Origin: Leucoraja ocellata
Lineage: Eukaryota
Assembly: GCA_036785375.1 (NCBI GenBank)
Contig: JAWMAR010000309.1
Coordinates: forward strand, 62,001 to 126,000
DNA length: 64,000 nt
Direction of reading: 5' to 3'
The position numbers are program-made. Shown here in pieces: positions 54,001 to 60,000 of the stretch (within the stretch, counting starts at the first letter, position 1; the number at the start of each line of letters is the position of its first letter).

Positions 54001-57000
54001 AAGGAGACAATGTCAATGTTAGAGTGAATTCAATGAACCTTTACTCACAGTGGGAAGCCAGATTCATAAGTCAGAGGACCACAGTAGTGTGACCTTAGGA
54101 CATGAGTTTCCCGAGGCAGCTCAAGATTGGTCGTCTTATTTTAAAGATGGATAGAGGGCAAACTGTCTTTTGCAGCTTTCCAAACATTGAACATTAAAAT
54201 ATGCTGTCTCTTTATTTTTGATTTCACAAACAGAATTTAAAATGCAATTGGATAAAACAGAATTGAATATTACCGTCTCAGAGAAGGACCTGTTCCAGCT
54301 CAGCTGTAATGTGACCCAACAAACTCAAGATAACTCTCGATTTGCTGTGTACTGGTTTGCTTGGAAGGTCAAAGAAGACATTGATGGGATCGTCAAGGAG
54401 ACGATTCTGAAAGTTGATCACAATTCGGTATTTGGTTTCGAAGCCTTGACGGACAGGGCTAAAAGCATGAAGGACAGATTGCAGTTCGAGAGGCCATCCA
54501 ACGGATTGTACACTCTGACAATACATAATTCAGGCAGAGGTGACACAGGGAATTACTACTGCAACGTAGAGGAGTGGATTCAAAATGCCAACAACATCTG
54601 GTACAAACTTGGAGAGGATGAGTCTGGGCTGCTTACTGTCACTGTTCAAAGCAAAGGTAATTTATCATAGAAATATAGAATGATGACAGGTGGCTATTTG
54701 GCCCATTATGTCCAGTGCAGCTCATACAGAATATGATTCCAACTACACACTGTGCTAAGAGATTTTCCCAACACTGTTCTTAATTAATGGAATATGAAAT
54801 ATAGCACATGGAACATAGAACGGTACAGTCCACAATGTCCATGCCAAACATGATGTCAAAATCAATTAATCTTCTCTGCCCACACATGATCCATATCCCT
54901 GCAAATCAATTTACCTATCTTGGGGCAACACAATGATAGTGTTAGAGTTGCTGCCTTACAGCATCAGAGACCCGGGTTCGATCCTGATTACAGGTGCTGT
55001 CTGTACGGGGTTTGTTCGTTCTCCCTGTGTTTTTTTCTGGATGCTCTGGTTTCTTCCCACTCCAAAGACGTACAGGTTTGTAGGTTAATTGGCTTCGGTA
55101 AAATTGTAAATTTTCTGACCTTGGGTGCTGTCTGTGCGACGTTTGCATATGCTCCCTGTGATCATGTGGGTTTCCTCCGGGTGCTCCGGTTTCCTCCCAC
55201 ATTCCTAAGGCATGCGGGTTTGTGGATTAATTGTCTTCTGTAAATTGCCCCTCATGTGTAGATGGGATAATGTGAAATTGGGATAACATAGAACTAGTGT
55301 AGGGGGTGATTGGTGGTCGGCGCGGACTCGGTGAGCCAAAGAGACTGTTTCCACACTGCATCTCAAAAGCTAAATTATGGCCTTTAAAGATTTATGGAGA
55401 ACATGAAAGGATTTAGACATTTAAAAGGTAATTGAACACCTGTTTCTTCCATGTGTGAGTGACTGACTTGCTGACTTTGCGATGCTCGCTGGAAATAACC
55501 CAACACCCCTTCCTTAGAGCCGCAGTGAAGGGTCAGCTGCATTATGTGACCAGGGCCCTTGGAGTTGGGTTTGAAAATCACAATCATCTGGCCGGGAGAT
55601 AAGGAAACTATTATAGAGCTACAAACACTATAGAATGGAGTCCAATGAAATCCGGCTGCAAAATAATTAATATATTTTATATTACTTCTGAATTTGTCTC
55701 ATTGTATCTGAACTTGTCCCGCTGGTGCATAAAAAATGACTTAATCTGAGAGTCAAAAGTTTATTTTATCATTCTGTACCACCAAGGCATGATGAATTCT
55801 AACCAAATATCTGTTTTTTATGTTTAAAAATAAATGTGAAATATATTAAATTTTATCTTGGATCAATATTGGTATGCGAGTTCAGACACATCTTGTAACT
55901 TTGGCACACTTTTATAGAACATAGAACAGTGCAGAAACAGGCGCCTCGGCCCACAATGTCCGTGCCAAACAAGGTGTGAAGTTAAAATAAACTCCTCTGC
56001 TTGCATCTGATCCAACCCCTTCATTCCCTGCACATCCATGTTTCTATCTAAAAGTATCTTAAACATCACTATCTTATCTGCCTCCACCAACACCCCTGGT
56101 AGTATTCCAGATACCCACCACTCTGAAAAGAAAAACGCTTGCCCCATACATCTCCTTTAAACTTTGCTCCTCTCACCTTAAAGCTATGCCCCCTAGTCTT
56201 TGACAACCTTGGGGGGGGGGGGGGGAGATTCTGCCTGTCTACCCTATCTGTGCTTCCCATAATTGTATATACTCTTATCAGGTCTACCCTCAACTTCCAA
56301 CACTCCAAATTCGTCTAACTTCTCCATATAACTAAGGTACTCATCCAAGAAGCATTCTGGTAAATCTCTTCTGCTCCCTCTCCAAAGCCCCCACATGTTT
56401 CCTATAATGGGGCGAACAGACCAGTGGTGAATCTGTGGAATCCATCGCCACAGAAGGCTGTGGAGACCAAGTCAATGGATATTTTTTAATGCGGAGATTG
56501 ATATATTTTTGATTTATATAAATCCTTTCATGTTCCCCATAAATCTTTAAAGGCCATCATTTAGTTTTTTCGATGCAGCGTGGAAACAGGTGCTTTGGCT
56601 CACCGAGTCGGCGCCGACCACCAATCACCTCCTACACTAGTTCCATGTTATCCCATTTTCACATTATCCCATCTACACGAGGGGCAATTTACGGAAGACA
56701 ATTAATCTACAAACCCGCATGCCTTAGGAATGTGGGAGAAAACCGGAGCACCCGGAGGAAACCCACATGATCACAGGGAGCATATGCAAACGTCACACAG
56801 ACATTTTACCGAAGCCAATTAACCTACAAACCTGTACGTCTTTGGATAAGGAAGAAACCAGAGCATCCGGAAAAAAAGACGGGGAGAACGAACAAACTCA
56901 AACTAGGGACAATCTGGAGTCCAATTAACCTACAAACCTGCATGTCTTTGGGATGTGGGAGGAAATCTGGCACATGGAGAATGTGCAAACTTTACACAGA

Positions 57001-60000
57001 TAGCACCAAAGGAAAGGATTGAACTGAGGTGTCTAGCGCTGTGAGGCATCGGCCCTACCAGCCACACAAATATCAATGTCCAATTTATTTCCTGTCATTC
57101 CCGTTATGCTAATTGATATTTCTTTCCCTTCACGCTATGTCACTAAATTATGAGGCACACACTGTGCCTAAGACAACTCCTTTGTTCTAACTAAAAGACA
57201 CACTGAGAACAGCACTCTGCCCACTCGGCATGTCTTTCATCCAAGGCATTTGAAAGATTCTGGAAATGAATCTGTTGTTATTACCTTGTGCTCCAATGGG
57301 GGGAAAAATAATCAAGAGGGCAAATGTTATTCTGAAATTGGTGAAGAGCTCCTGAAAAATTATTATCTTTAATTTGAGTTTCCTCCAGGAATAGAAGATA
57401 CATTTCATCGGCAGCTGGCATTTAAAAAGTGTAGAGTTACCATAATGTTCTACCCTTTGACATAAACCATGTTATTCTGGTTTAGCTGCCTTAACAACTC
57501 TTGGTTATGCTTCCTATTATGGGGCAAAGAGAACTACACACAATACTCCAAATGCAGCCTAACCTTTACAATCACAGGTCAGACCGCATTTGGAGTATTG
57601 TGAGCAGTTTTGTGCCCAATATCTGAGGAACGATGTGCTGGCATTGAAACGGGTTCAGAGGTTAAGAGAATGATCCCAGGAATGATTTGTTTAACATATG
57701 ATAAGCGTTTACGGCACTGGGCCTATACTCGCTGGCACTAAAAGGATGAGGGGCATTTCATTGAAATGTACCGAATAGTGAAAGGGCTGGATAGTGGATG
57801 GTTCCACTAGTGGGAGAGTCTAGGACCAGAAGTCATACACACAGAATAAATACACATACCTTTGGAATGGAGATGGGATAGAATTTATTTAGTCAGAGAG
57901 TGGTGAATATGTGGAATCCATCGCCACAGAAGGCTGTGGAGACCAAGCCAATGGATATTTTTTAATGCGGAGATTGATATATTTTTGATTTATAAGGGTG
58001 TTAGGGGTTATGTGGAAAAGGTAGGAGAATAGAGTTGCGAGGGAAAGAGAGATCAGCCATGATTGAATGGGGGAATAGACTTGATGCGCCGAATGACCTA
58101 ATTTTGCTCCTATAACTTATGAACAAACCAAAGTCCTATGTATCTATATACACGAACATTATACTTCCTCACATTTTCCGTGTTTAAGGTGCTAGATAAA
58201 TGCAAGTTACAGCAGGTGACAGATGTGCAGCGCTTGCAGTTGGCAGTTCTGTTAATGTTTTTTTGGGGGGGATAATGCCCCAGGGCAGTTCATAGAGGTG
58301 TGCAATTTAAAACCTGTACTTCAGTTTCACATTTCTCTTGGTCATCAAAAAATGAAACCATTCTTTGTCGAGTACAAAACCCAGTAGCGTGGGATTCAAT
58401 AACAGCTACTTTTGATACTCTTTCGCCTGTTTGTTCTGCAACACCGTGGCATCAATCACCGTACATTCTCTCAACCACCCAAGACAAAGTGACTTGAAAG
58501 TGTACCCGATATTGAGCCATACACTGCATGAAAATTGTGTATTCATCAGCATTTCCATTTTATTCATCATAAGATCATAAGACACAGGAACAGTATTAGG
58601 CCATTTGGCCCATTGAGTCTGCTCTGCTATTCAATCATGACTGATCTATTTTTCGCTCTCAACCACATTCTCCTGTCTTCTCCCCGTAACCTTTGACACC
58701 TTTACTAATCAAAAACCTGTCAATCTCCGCTTTTAAAATACCCAATAACGTTGACTTGCTTCCGCCGCCATCTGTGGCAATGAATTCCACAGATTCACAA
58801 CCTTCTGGCTAAATAAAATACATCATTTTATTCTGAGGCTACGCCCTCTGGTTCTAGACTCTTATTTGCATCATATTATCTTGGTTTAGATTTATTATTT
58901 TCACGTGTACAGTAAAAAGCTTTGTTTTGCATGCTACCCAATCAAACCAGATAATAGCATGCATAAATGCTCTCAAGCCGCACTCAAGTGCAATAGGTAG
59001 AGTGAAATGAAAGAGAGTGCAGAATATAAATACTAAGTTTATTTTGGGAACATGAGCCTTGTTACCAATTTGGATTTTGTTTAAATAAAGGCATTTTTGT
59101 GCGGCTGCTGGGAGAGAAAGCCAAAAAGACTGCGTCTGAAACGAAAGCAGAAAATGCTAGAAATAAATAGGATGTCTCGTTAAACAGTGCAAGAAAATTG
59201 ACGATGCCATTTCTGTGCGCATAATCCTTCTTCACAATTAGAAAGTGTGTACTTATAATTGTATCCCAGTTTCTTGTGAGTTGTTAAGGCAGCTAAACCA
59301 GAATAACATGGTTTATGTCAAAGGGTAGAATATTATGGTAACTCTACACTTTTTAAATGCCAGCTGCCGATGAAATGTATCTTCTATTCCTGGAGGAAAC
59401 TCAAATTAAAGATAATAATTTTTCAGGAGCTCTTTACCAATTTCAGAATAACATTTGCCTTCTTGATTATTTCCCCCCCCCCCCCCCATTGGAGCACAAG
59501 GTAATAACAACAGATTCATTTCCAGAATCTTTCAAATGCCTTGGATGAAAGACATGCCGAGGAGGCAGAGTGCTGTTCTCAGTGTGTCTTTTAGTTAGAA
59601 CAAAGGAGTTGTCTTAGGCACAGTGTGTGCCTCATAATTTAGTGACATAGAGTGAAGGGAAAGAAATATCAATTAGCATAACGAGAATGACAGGAAATAA
59701 ATAGGTGATTGATATTTGTGTGGCTTGTAGAGCCACTGCCTCACAGCGCTGGAGACCTCAGTTCAATCCTTTCCTTTGGTGCTATCTGTGTAAAGTTTGC
59801 AGGTTCTCCACGTGCCAGTTTTCTCCCACATCCCAAAGACATGCAGGTTTGTAGGTTAATTGGCCTCTAGATTGCCCCAAGTATGTAGGGTGTGGATGAG
59901 AGAGTGGGATAACATTGAGGTAGTGTGAACGGGTGGACTTGGTAAACTGAAGGCTGTGTTTCCATGCTGTATTTCTAAACTAAACTAAAAGCAAATTTCT

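What the first reader, a model, noticed from the sequence alone, without database searches (positions are those of the whole stretch)
56395..59882. Three-template mosaic insertion creating long inverted repeats beside the TM exon
Seen: a CR1 fragment is broken by a ~1.08-kb insert bounded by a diverged 26-bp duplication (56395-56420 vs 57507-57532). The insert is a patchwork of neighbouring DNA: 96 bp copied directly from 57899-57994, ~380 bp inverted from 55010-55415, and ~600 bp inverted from 59278-59882, including non-repeat sequence. Scattered substitutions in every arm argue against an assembly artefact. Inference: a fossil germline template-switching repair event (MMBIR/FoSTeS or Pol-theta templated insertion). 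It lets the last intron fold into ~380- and ~600-bp duplexes, the longer ending ~146 nt before the acceptor of the transmembrane exon, so ADAR editing or altered TM-exon use (soluble IGSF3) is conceivable.
Basis: partly seen in the sequence, partly recalled or inferred. Interest (0 to 1): 0.72.

Follow-up and report, generated by a model that had tools for sequence, protein, structure and literature searches.

The report
Patchwork copy-paste insertion in an intron
A 1.1-kb stretch inside the last intron of an immunoglobulin-superfamily gene was stitched together long ago from copies of three nearby pieces of the same intron, an ordinary kind of DNA copying accident that left two very long inverted repeats of no shown function.

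Summary
A 1,086-bp insert (56421-57506) interrupts a minus-strand CR1-like fragment. It is flanked by a 26-bp duplication of the target, 22 of 26 identical. It has three abutting pieces:
- a: 96 bp, a direct copy of 57899-57994 (94/96)
- b: 379 bp, inverted from 55010-55415 (356/379)
- c: 603 bp, inverted from 59278-59886 (574/602)

Each source lies inside a longer repeat copy that runs on past the copied part, so the neighbours are the originals. Divergence does not differ between pieces (p=0.25; 4.9% overall). Derived changes sit on both partners, which rules out an assembly artefact and fits one old germline event.

The best reading is a local "cycle of templated insertions", a copy-and-paste template-switch event. 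The sub-mechanism stays open because the junctions are blunt or carry 2- and 6-nt fillers, with no clear microhomology.

Everything lies in the 5,372-nt last intron of an EWI-type Ig gene. Calling it IGSF3 is plausible but untested. The predicted intron fold contains both duplexes (362 and 579 bp). ADAR editing and altered use of the transmembrane exon remain speculation. No eukaryotic genome or RNA data were available.

This is a new example of a known kind of event, of modest interest.

The parts
54218..54656 (+). Last Ig-domain exon of the host gene. The 5' bound is the ORF start, not a mapped acceptor. Donor AAG|GTAAT at 54656/54657, phase 1.
   Evidence: ORF; Pfam V-set E=1.1e-7; sequence read; Atlas neighbours carry V-set/Ig_IgSF3 or are named PTGFRN.
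54657..60028 (+). Last intron (5,372 nt). It holds the insert and all three templates.
   Evidence: Donor read and acceptor. The phases of the two exons are compatible (one base plus two bases). The exons were not joined. MFE fold.
54928..55377 (+). Two adjoining fragments of a SINE-like interspersed repeat (about 54928-55107 and 55115-55377). Template A is cut out of them.
   Evidence: More than 15 other copies in the window at 65-81%. No tRNA found by ARAGORN. The label SINE is an inference.
55010..55415 (+). Template A, source of piece b.
   Evidence: It starts inside the first SINE-like fragment, which continues to the left of 55010, and ends about 38 nt beyond the second.
55917..57565 (-). 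5'-truncated CR1-like LINE 3' fragment, the host of the insert. It is one element interrupted by one nested insertion.
Evidence: Sequence read; alignment with two uninterrupted copies. The pieces were compared apart. Pfam found nothing in the ORF 55863-56144.
56395..56420 (.). Left copy of the 26-bp target duplication.
   Evidence: 22/26 identical to 57507-57532. Present once in uninterrupted copies.
56421..57506 (.). The 1,086-bp mosaic insert: 2-nt filler, piece a, piece b, piece c, 6-nt filler.
56423..56518 (+). Piece a: direct copy of 57899-57994 (94/96).
56519..56897 (-). Piece b: inverted copy of 55010-55415 (356/379). It skips about 25 nt of the source (55105-55129).
56898..57500 (-). 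Piece c: inverted copy of 59278-59886 (574/602).
57507..57532 (.). Right copy of the 26-bp target duplication.
57576..58124 (+). Plus-strand CR1-like 3' fragment. Template for piece a lies inside it (57899-57994).
59278..59886 (+). Template C, source of piece c. It comprises 445 nt with no other copy in the window (59278-59722) plus the first ~164 nt of a SINE-like copy.
59723..59989 (+). SINE-like repeat copy that continues about 100 nt beyond the end of template C.
   Evidence: for example 59727-59989 vs 7918-8203.
60029..60279 (+). Last coding exon: acceptor ...ttttctgcag|GT, a 23-residue hydrophobic stretch followed by basic residues, a short tail, and a stop at 60277-60279.
   Evidence: Translation. 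No Pfam family and no informative Atlas neighbour, so 'transmembrane exon' rests on sequence features only.

Best explanation
The insert is a fixed, old germline copy-and-paste rearrangement made in one event.

**Proposed path (inferred)**
- A growing DNA end left its template inside a CR1-like fragment at about 56420.
- It copied 96 nt from 1.5 kb ahead on the same strand.
- It then copied about 400 nt from the opposite strand 1-1.4 kb behind. It skipped 25 nt there, or those were lost later.
- It then copied about 600 nt from the opposite strand 2.9-3.5 kb ahead.
- It came back to the original template 26 nt behind the point of departure, so those 26 nt are duplicated on both sides.

In current terms this is a small, purely local 'cycle of templated insertions' or 'local n-jump'. 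It belongs to the family of template-switching events discussed as FoSTeS/MMBIR.

**Shown**: the anatomy, the direction of copying, the equal age of the pieces, and that it is not an artefact.
**Inferred**: that it was one event, and that synthesis rather than ligation of loose fragments made it.

**Consequence.** The pre-mRNA intron now carries two adjacent inverted-repeat pairs, predicted to form duplexes of about 360 and 580 bp. I take the event to be selectively neutral. The duplexes are plausible ADAR substrates, but nothing here shows editing or any effect on splicing.
For: **Local copies, not family members**
- The three pairs are the longest and most similar repeats in the window.
- Other family copies match at 65-81%.

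**Direction of copying**
- Piece b starts inside a SINE-like fragment that continues to 54928 at the source.
- Piece c ends inside a SINE-like copy that continues to 59989 at the source.
- Piece a is internal to a 549-bp CR1-like copy.
- Piece b also carries the specific junction of two SINE-like fragments found at the source.

**One event**
- The pieces abut directly.
- Divergence is 2/96, 23/379 and 28/602, with chi-square p=0.25.

**Real and old**
- There are 53 substitutions in 1,077 aligned bases plus 4 indels.
- Of 53 differing sites, 20 are derived in the insert, 11 are derived in the source, 6 are ambiguous and 16 have too few outgroup copies.

**Return to the host with re-replication**
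- The 26-bp duplication is 22/26 identical, and the segment is single in 2 of 2 alignable uninterrupted copies.

**Fit to a described class**
- Strings of 2-7 copied templates that return and re-replicate a host segment are called 'cycles'. The local version has mixed inverted and non-inverted junctions (PMC7025897, passages read).

**RNA**
- Cofold energies are -675.6 and -1059.1 kcal/mol, and the longest perfect helix is 195 bp.
- In the whole-intron MFE, 362 + 579 of 2,005 pairs come from the two duplexes.
Against: - **No clear microhomology at any of the 4 junctions.** J1 has a 2-nt filler, J2 is blunt, J3 shares about 1 nt and J4 has a 6-nt filler. Microhomology is the usual argument for replicative switching. 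About 5% later divergence could hide some of it.
- **No excess of mismatches near junctions.** 11/201 lie within 25 nt of a junction against 42/876 farther away, p=0.72.
- **The 26-bp duplication is more diverged than the pieces.** 4/26 against 53/1,077, Fisher p=0.04.
- **Mismatches are clustered and uneven.** 25 of 53 have a neighbour within 3 nt against 13.7 expected, P=0.007. Counts per 100 nt range from 1 to 11. A single neutral clock does not predict this.
- **Limits of the evidence.** The 'unique' part of template C is unique only within 64 kb. No genome, related species or reads could be examined.
Confidence: 0.7

Rival explanations
1. Capture by end joining. A staggered double-strand break in the CR1-like fragment was filled in, giving the 26-bp duplication. 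It was then sealed by ligating three loose DNA fragments released from the neighbourhood, for example displaced nascent strands or flaps, without serial template switching at the break.
For: - The junctions are blunt or carry short fillers, which is typical of end joining.
- In yeast, complex insertions of two or more fragments at breaks occur, and junctions to the break ends have a median of 2 bp of microhomology (PMC11724301, passages read).
- Breakpoint studies stress that template switching and end joining are hard to tell apart (PMC3638133, passages read).
Against: - All three sources are intact in place, and all lie within -1.4 to +3.5 kb of the break. Capture of random loose fragments does not predict this.
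- A 26-nt stagger is long for a simple break. That statement is recalled and was not tested.
Confidence: 0.15
2. Stepwise origin. Two or three separate local duplications or insertions landed at the same site at different times.
For: - Mismatch density is uneven along the insert, 1 to 11 per 100 nt.
- The flanking 26-bp duplication is more diverged than the pieces, p=0.04.
- Piece a has only 2/96 differences.
Against: - Divergence of the three pieces does not differ significantly, p=0.25, or p=0.50 without CpG transitions.
- The pieces abut with 0-1 nt between them and no host DNA.
- Three hits at one site in a 5.4-kb intron is unlikely.
Confidence: 0.07
3. The insert is one copy of a composite interspersed repeat or of a transposon with long terminal inverted repeats. 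The similarity to its neighbours is then family similarity.
For: - Most of pieces a and b, and about a quarter of piece c, consist of repeat-family sequence.
- The insert has a target-duplication-like flank.
Against: - The nearest relatives of all three pieces are the immediate neighbours at 94-98%, against 65-81% for every other copy in the window.
- The outer ends of the would-be terminal repeats (55010, 59886) fall inside SINE-like copies that continue uninterrupted outside them.
- The insert has no terminal inverted repeat of its own and no poly-A or microsatellite tail.
Confidence: 0.03
4. Assembly artefact, for example chimeric or fold-back reads.
For: Inverted local duplications are a known failure mode of long-read data. 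This is recalled and was not tested.
Against: - There are 53 substitutions and 4 indels between the copies.
- Derived states occur on both partners, 20 against 11. An artefact would copy the source nearly exactly.
Confidence: 0.03

Closest known systems
[quoted passage not shown]
   Same: - Several templates are copied, not moved, and strung together at one locus.
- The string returns to the host and re-replicates a host segment (26 bp here).
- Local templates give a mix of inverted and non-inverted junctions.
   Different: - This case is germline, fixed and old (about 5% divergence).
- The segments are only 96-609 bp and all lie within 3.5 kb.
- The re-replicated host segment is tiny.
- The PCAWG segment-size figures are in figures and supplements that I could not see.
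FoSTeS / MMBIR complex rearrangements of human genomic disorders (Lee 2007 and Hastings 2009, seen only as citations in the passages)
   Same: - Serial switches to nearby templates on either strand.
- Sources are retained.
- The rearrangement is complex but made in a single step.
   Different: - The expected microhomology at junctions is not evident here.
- The scale is kb, not tens of kb to Mb.
- No enrichment of point changes near the junctions.
Short template-switch mutations, four-point model (PMC5453318, PMC8794818; passages read)
   Same: An inverted copy of nearby sequence creates a new inverted repeat, and hence an RNA hairpin, in one mutational step without a pre-existing repeat.
   Different: - That model covers one switch-and-return over tens of bp. 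The authors state that it does not attempt multiple successive rounds or long range.
- Here there are 3-4 templates, one of them direct, with pieces of 96-609 bp.
Complex templated insertions at double-strand breaks in yeast (PMC11724301; passages read)
   Same: - Multi-fragment insertions occur, often with inverted fragments.
- The proposed route is template switching within single-stranded replication intermediates followed by insertion at a break.
   Different: - The yeast events are experimental, mostly short (medians of 50-150 bp) and usually from distant donors.
- 5-7% of them are complex.
- No flanking 26-bp duplication is described in the passages I read.
Inverted-repeat dsRNA as ADAR substrate (PMC9989829; passages read)
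   Same: Nearby inverted copies of young repeats in one transcript form the long dsRNA that is hyper-edited across Metazoa. The two duplexes here are longer and better paired than typical repeat pairs in this window.
   Different: - Here the arms were made by local copying, not by two transposon insertions.
- 445 nt of one arm is not repeat sequence within this window.
- Editing was not observed.

Membership tests
Replicative template switching (FoSTeS/MMBIR-type complex rearrangement) | Templates are copied, and the sources stay in place. | tested here: met
   All three sources are intact and embedded in longer repeat copies.
Replicative template switching (FoSTeS/MMBIR-type complex rearrangement) | Several junctions made in one event. 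| tested here: inconclusive
   The pieces abut and their divergence is homogeneous, p=0.25. Mismatch density is uneven and the 26-bp flank is more diverged, p=0.04.
Replicative template switching (FoSTeS/MMBIR-type complex rearrangement) | Microhomology of about 2 nt or more at the junctions. | tested here: not met
   J1 has a 2-nt filler, with an imperfect 4-nt match offset by one base. J2 is blunt, J3 shares about 1 nt and J4 has a 6-nt filler. Later substitutions may have erased some.
Replicative template switching (FoSTeS/MMBIR-type complex rearrangement) | Templates physically close, with both orientations used. | tested here: met
   Templates lie at +1.5 kb (direct), -1.0 to -1.4 kb (inverted) and +2.9 to +3.5 kb (inverted) from the departure point.
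Replicative template switching (FoSTeS/MMBIR-type complex rearrangement) | Error-prone synthesis: extra point changes near junctions or on the copied strand (feature recalled). | tested here: inconclusive
   No enrichment near junctions. Derived changes number 20 in the insert against 11 in the sources (13 against 4 in piece b), a weak excess. Mismatches are clustered, P=0.007.
Cycle of templated insertions / local n-jump (PCAWG classes) | A string of copied segments that returns to the host chromosome and re-replicates a host segment. | tested here: met
   Three abutting copied segments plus the 26-bp host duplication. The definition was read.
Cycle of templated insertions / local n-jump (PCAWG classes) | Somatic origin and the typical segment size of that catalogue. 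| not testable with these tools
   The age here (about 5% divergence, with changes on both copies) argues for a germline, fixed event. The size distributions are in figures and supplements that were not available.
Short template-switch mutation (four-point model) | A single switch-and-return, an inverted copy, tens of bp. | tested here: not met
   There are 3-4 templates, one of them direct, with pieces of 96-609 bp. The scope of the model was read.
Pol-theta (TMEJ) templated insertion | A short insert copied from within tens of bp of the break, primed by microhomology (features recalled). | tested here: not met
   The insert is 1,086 bp, its templates are 1-3.5 kb away, and there is no clear microhomology.
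Transposable-element insertion | Defined termini (terminal inverted repeats, long terminal repeats or a 3' tail) and dispersed copies. | tested here: not met
   The insert has no terminal repeats or tail. No other copy of the arrangement exists in the 64 kb. Genome-wide dispersal was not testable.
EWI subfamily of Ig proteins (IGSF3, PTGFRN, IGSF8, CD101), for the host gene | A tandem series of V-type Ig domains, one per exon. | tested here: met
   7 of 7 candidate exons hit Ig-type Pfam families: 6 hit V-set and one hits Ig_3/I-set only. The exons were searched one by one and never joined.
EWI subfamily of Ig proteins (IGSF3, PTGFRN, IGSF8, CD101), for the host gene | A Glu-Trp-Ile motif after the second cysteine of the Ig domain (motif recalled). 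| tested here: met
   E-W-I is present in 3 of 7 exon translations, and E-W-L or E-W-A in 2 more.
EWI subfamily of Ig proteins (IGSF3, PTGFRN, IGSF8, CD101), for the host gene | Orthology to IGSF3 specifically. | not testable with these tools
   For the last Ig exon, the Atlas neighbours include clusters carrying Pfam Ig_IgSF3 (14% and 99% of members) and one named PTGFRN. The PDB search gave only antibody/TCR-type hits at E of 0.0017 or above.

The most novel reading that the evidence does not exclude
Kilobase-scale, multi-template local copy-and-paste events are a recurrent germline source of long, near-perfect intronic dsRNA in cartilaginous-fish genomes, independent of transposition. This particular pair of duplexes, ending about 142 nt upstream of the last acceptor, is hyper-edited and tunes use of the transmembrane exon, shifting the balance between membrane-bound and soluble forms of an EWI-family protein.
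Probability: 0.04. Interest if true: 0.6.

Novelty: new member of a known kind. Interest (0 to 1): 0.3.

Why it matters
This is an unusually legible fossil of a multi-step copy-and-paste rearrangement. All templates survive next to the product, the direction of copying can be read from truncated repeats, and the empty site can be inferred from paralogous repeat copies.

It shows that the process catalogued in human disease and cancer genomes also leaves fixed traces in a distant vertebrate lineage. It also shows that the process can create inverted repeats of 360-580 bp, partly from sequence with no other copy in this window, in a single step.

If such events are common, they would add to transposon pairs as a source of cellular dsRNA. 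As a single neutral-looking instance without RNA or comparative data, its weight is modest.

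Tried and rejected
- **Transposon with long terminal inverted repeats** (56899-59885 or 55010-56897). Rejected: the outer ends fall inside SINE-like copies that continue outside them.
- **Retrotransposed chimeric RNA.** Rejected as less likely: there is no 3' tail, and both transcript strands would be needed.
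- **tRNA scan of 54000-60500** to type the SINE-like repeat: 0 genes.
- **Rfam at E of 1 or below on 54000-60500.** Only 4 sub-threshold miRNA-family hits, all on the hairpin 57524-57616 and none on the insert.
- **PDB sequence search with the last Ig exon.** 6 hits, all antibody, TCR or CEA-type at E of 0.0017 or above. No EWI-family structure came back. I had PTGFRN and IGSF8 in mind.
- **Atlas and Pfam on the last exon.** Nothing informative.
- **Mismatch enrichment near junctions.** None found.
- **** failed on a coordinate slip, a stop codon inside the range. This was corrected.

**Not done**
- No genome-wide search for the arrangement or for an empty site. The only open contig collection holds bacterial and archaeal genomes, so it was not used.
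- Paper supplements were closed. The PCAWG and yeast supplements could bear on the size and microhomology comparisons.

Full report
**1. The observation**

The window has no N. I did not take it for human, and no tool flagged it.

- 56423-56518 is a direct copy of 57899-57994 (96 nt, 98%, E=5.7e-42).
- 56519-56897 is an inverted copy of 55010-55415 (E=1.9e-149).
- 56899-57500 is an inverted copy of 59278-59885 (E=0).

Global alignments give these counts:

| Piece | Identical / aligned | Gaps |
|---|---|---|
| a | 94/96 | none |
| b | 356/379 | insert copy lacks 25 nt and 2 nt |
| c | 574/602 | one 7-nt gap in a homopolymer run, one 1-nt gap |

The flanking duplication 56395-56420 / 57507-57532 is 22/26 identical.

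- Template C ends at 59885/59886, so it lies 142-143 nt from the acceptor.
- Piece b skips about 25 nt of its source (about 55105-55129). That is either a fourth switch or a later deletion.

**2. More than chance, and more than repeat-family similarity**

The region is full of interspersed repeats. A SINE-like family has more than 15 copies in the window, and a CR1-like LINE 3' region has several. ARAGORN found no tRNA, and Pfam found nothing in two CR1-like ORFs.

Those other copies match the stretches in question at 65-81% for long hits. In a self-comparison of the whole window, 284 repeat pairs are 100 bp or longer. Only the c pair is at 90% or above, and the b pair is one of 5 at 85-90%.

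Of template C, 445 nt (59278-59722) has no other copy in the window except piece c. I can say 'non-repeat' only at that scale.

**3. Which is the copy**

All three pieces are sub-fragments of longer repeat copies that continue in register at the source but stop at a junction in the insert:
- The first SINE-like fragment runs 54928-55107, and piece b covers it only from 55010.
- The SINE-like copy at 59723-59989 is covered by piece c only up to 59886.
- Piece a is an internal 96 nt of the 549-bp CR1-like copy 57576-58124.

Piece b also reproduces the particular abutment of two SINE-like fragments found at 55105-55130. The neighbours are therefore the originals and the insert is the copy. The same fact excludes a transposon with long terminal inverted repeats, because the would-be outer ends lie inside repeats that run on.

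**4. The target**

The insert sits in a minus-strand, 5'-truncated CR1-like fragment (55917-57565). I compared its two pieces apart and never closed the gap.

Two uninterrupted copies were aligned with them: the reverse complement of 57576-57720, and 43120-43290. Both run straight through the site. The left and right flanks overlap on them by exactly the 26 duplicated columns. A third sequence in that alignment was not alignable there. The right flank's 26 nt match the left flank's far better (22/26) than they match the neighbouring plus-strand copy (12/26 by my reading of the alignment). This is a true duplication of the target.

**5. Junctions**

| Junction | Between | What is there |
|---|---|---|
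| J1 | left flank and piece a | 2 unmatched bases; an imperfect 4-nt match exists one base out of register |
| J2 | a and b | blunt |
| J3 | b and c | about 1 shared base; both sides are SINE-like sequence but about 90 nt out of register, so not homologous recombination |
| J4 | c and right flank | 6 unmatched bases |

None of the four junctions shows clear microhomology.

**6. One event or several; real or artefact**

Divergence does not differ between the pieces: chi-square p=0.25, or p=0.50 without CpG transitions. Pooled, it is 53/1,077 = 4.9%.

I polarised the differing sites using other window copies as outgroups. I used counts per column only and built no consensus.
- Of 53 differing sites, 20 are derived in the insert, 11 are derived in the source, 6 are ambiguous and 16 have fewer than 3 outgroups.
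- Changes on both partners, plus 4 indels, exclude a read or assembly artefact and show an old, inherited event.

With a generic vertebrate neutral rate of about 1e-9 per site per year, 4.9% pairwise divergence corresponds to roughly 25 million years, and more if this lineage is slower. The rate is recalled and was not tested.

These results count against a simple single-clock picture:
- The 26-bp duplication is more diverged: 4/26, Fisher p=0.04.
- Mismatches are clustered: 25 of 53 have a neighbour within 3 nt against 13.7 expected, P=0.007.
- Mismatches are uneven, with 1 to 11 per 100 nt.
- The insert carries somewhat more derived changes in piece b (13 against 4).

Error-prone synthesis, multinucleotide mutations or patchy gene conversion between the arms could each contribute. 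I cannot separate them. Mismatches are not enriched near junctions: 11/201 within 25 nt against 42/876 farther away, p=0.72.

**7. Mechanism**

The anatomy has four features:
- Templates are copied rather than moved.
- There are three or four pieces, from both strands.
- All pieces come from within -1.4 to +3.5 kb.
- The path returns 26 nt behind the point of departure.

This is what the PCAWG survey defines as a 'cycle' of templated insertions, and with local templates as a 'local n-jump' with mixed inverted and non-inverted junctions (PMC7025897, passages read). That paper and others attribute such structures to template switching of a stalled or broken replication intermediate. FoSTeS and MMBIR I saw only as citations in the passages.

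The absence of microhomology keeps an end-joining route open. Malhotra et al. state that the two are hard to distinguish and that flush joins argue for end joining (PMC3638133, passages read). Yeast work shows multi-fragment, often inverted insertions at breaks. The proposed mechanism there is a template switch in single-stranded replication intermediates followed by insertion through end joining (PMC11724301, passages read).

I therefore commit to 'one local copy-and-paste event' (0.7) and leave the enzymology open.

The short template-switch model of Löytynoja and Goldman is the closest evolutionary analogue, because it creates new inverted repeats and hairpins in one step. By its authors' own statement it does not cover multiple rounds or long range (PMC5453318; PMC8794818).

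**8. Gene context**

Seven plus-strand exons between 11666 and 54656 each hit Ig-type Pfam families: 6 of 7 hit V-set, and one hits Ig_3/I-set only. E-W-I follows the second cysteine in 3 of the 7, and E-W-L or E-W-A in 2 more. The motif's meaning is recalled.

For the last Ig exon, the Atlas lists neighbour clusters carrying Pfam Ig_IgSF3 (14% and 99% of members) and one named PTGFRN. The PDB search returned only antibody, TCR or CEA-type chains at E of 0.0017 or above.

The splice model rests on these points:
- The last Ig exon ends at a consensus donor (AAG|GTAAT, 54656/54657) in phase 1.
- The next exon starts after ...ttttctgcag at 60029, in the complementary phase.
- It encodes a 23-residue hydrophobic stretch, basic residues and a short tail, and stops at 60277-60279.
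- Pfam and the Atlas do not recognise this exon, so 'transmembrane exon' rests on those features.

I searched the spliced model exon by exon and left the joined step out. 'EWI-family, IGSF3-like' is as far as the evidence goes.

**9. RNA consequence**

Both arm pairs lie in the 5,372-nt intron 54657-60028 and sit side by side, so both can form at once.

| Duplex | Cofold energy | Intermolecular pairs | Pairs in whole-intron MFE |
|---|---|---|---|
| b pair | -675.6 kcal/mol | 362 | 362 |
| c pair | -1059.1 kcal/mol | 581; longest uninterrupted helix 195 bp | 579 |

The whole-intron fold has 2,005 pairs in total. Of the 142 nt between the c arm and the acceptor, 94 are paired elsewhere in that fold.

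Long dsRNA from nearby inverted repeats is the main hyper-editing substrate across Metazoa (PMC9989829, passages read). Editing is therefore a fair prediction, but no RNA data were available. Nothing supports an effect on exon choice.

**10. Verdict**

- The structural interpretation is supported as a class. The specific enzymology and all the functional ideas are untested.
- This is a new example of a known kind of rearrangement, neat but ordinary.

**What stayed unchecked**
- Genome-wide dispersal of the arrangement.
- The empty site in related species.
- Read support for the assembly.
- RNA editing.
- Gene orthology.

Papers other than the six named above were seen only as search listings.

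Noticed in passing
window 57532-57609: Two CR1-like 3' fragments lie head to head and are cut off at the same position of the element, with a 10-nt spacer. They form a 34-nt-arm hairpin (RNA MFE -45.4 kcal/mol, z -8.4). The hairpin draws only sub-threshold miRNA-family hits in Rfam (best 33.5 bits against a gathering score of 100). Beyond the first ~48 nt the two copies share no detectable nucleotide similarity. The shared truncation point is therefore unexplained: it could be coincidence or a small, older inverted template switch.
   Followed up: partly
window 23938-26885 (+): A run of long ORFs lies inside the ~26-kb intron between the Ig exons at 20925-21503 and 47834-48442. One ORF has a reverse-transcriptase domain (RVT_1, E=7e-18) and one has a tyrosine-recombinase domain (Phage_integrase, E=1e-7). 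This is a tyrosine-recombinase retroelement; the label 'DIRS-like' is recalled. Its intactness was not examined.
   Followed up: partly
window 32284-33776 (-): ORFs with RVT_1 (E=8e-18) and an endonuclease-RT family match (Exo_endo_phos_2, E=8e-4, below the curated cut-off). This is a LINE remnant in the same long intron.
   Followed up: partly
window 57884-58122 vs 58575-58817: A further, older inverted pair of CR1-like 3' ends (75% over 245 nt) lies inside the loop of the c duplex. It contributes 202 pairs in the whole-intron fold. The intron was rich in inverted repeats before the event.
   Followed up: partly
window 56210-56229 and 59469-59488: Runs of about 15 G and about 15 C. The copy of the second run inside piece c is 7 nt shorter, which is ordinary homopolymer instability.
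   Followed up: no
window 63000-64000: G+C rises to about 0.5, with a strong G-over-C skew (0.475 at 63250-63749) downstream of the last exon. Not examined.
   Followed up: no
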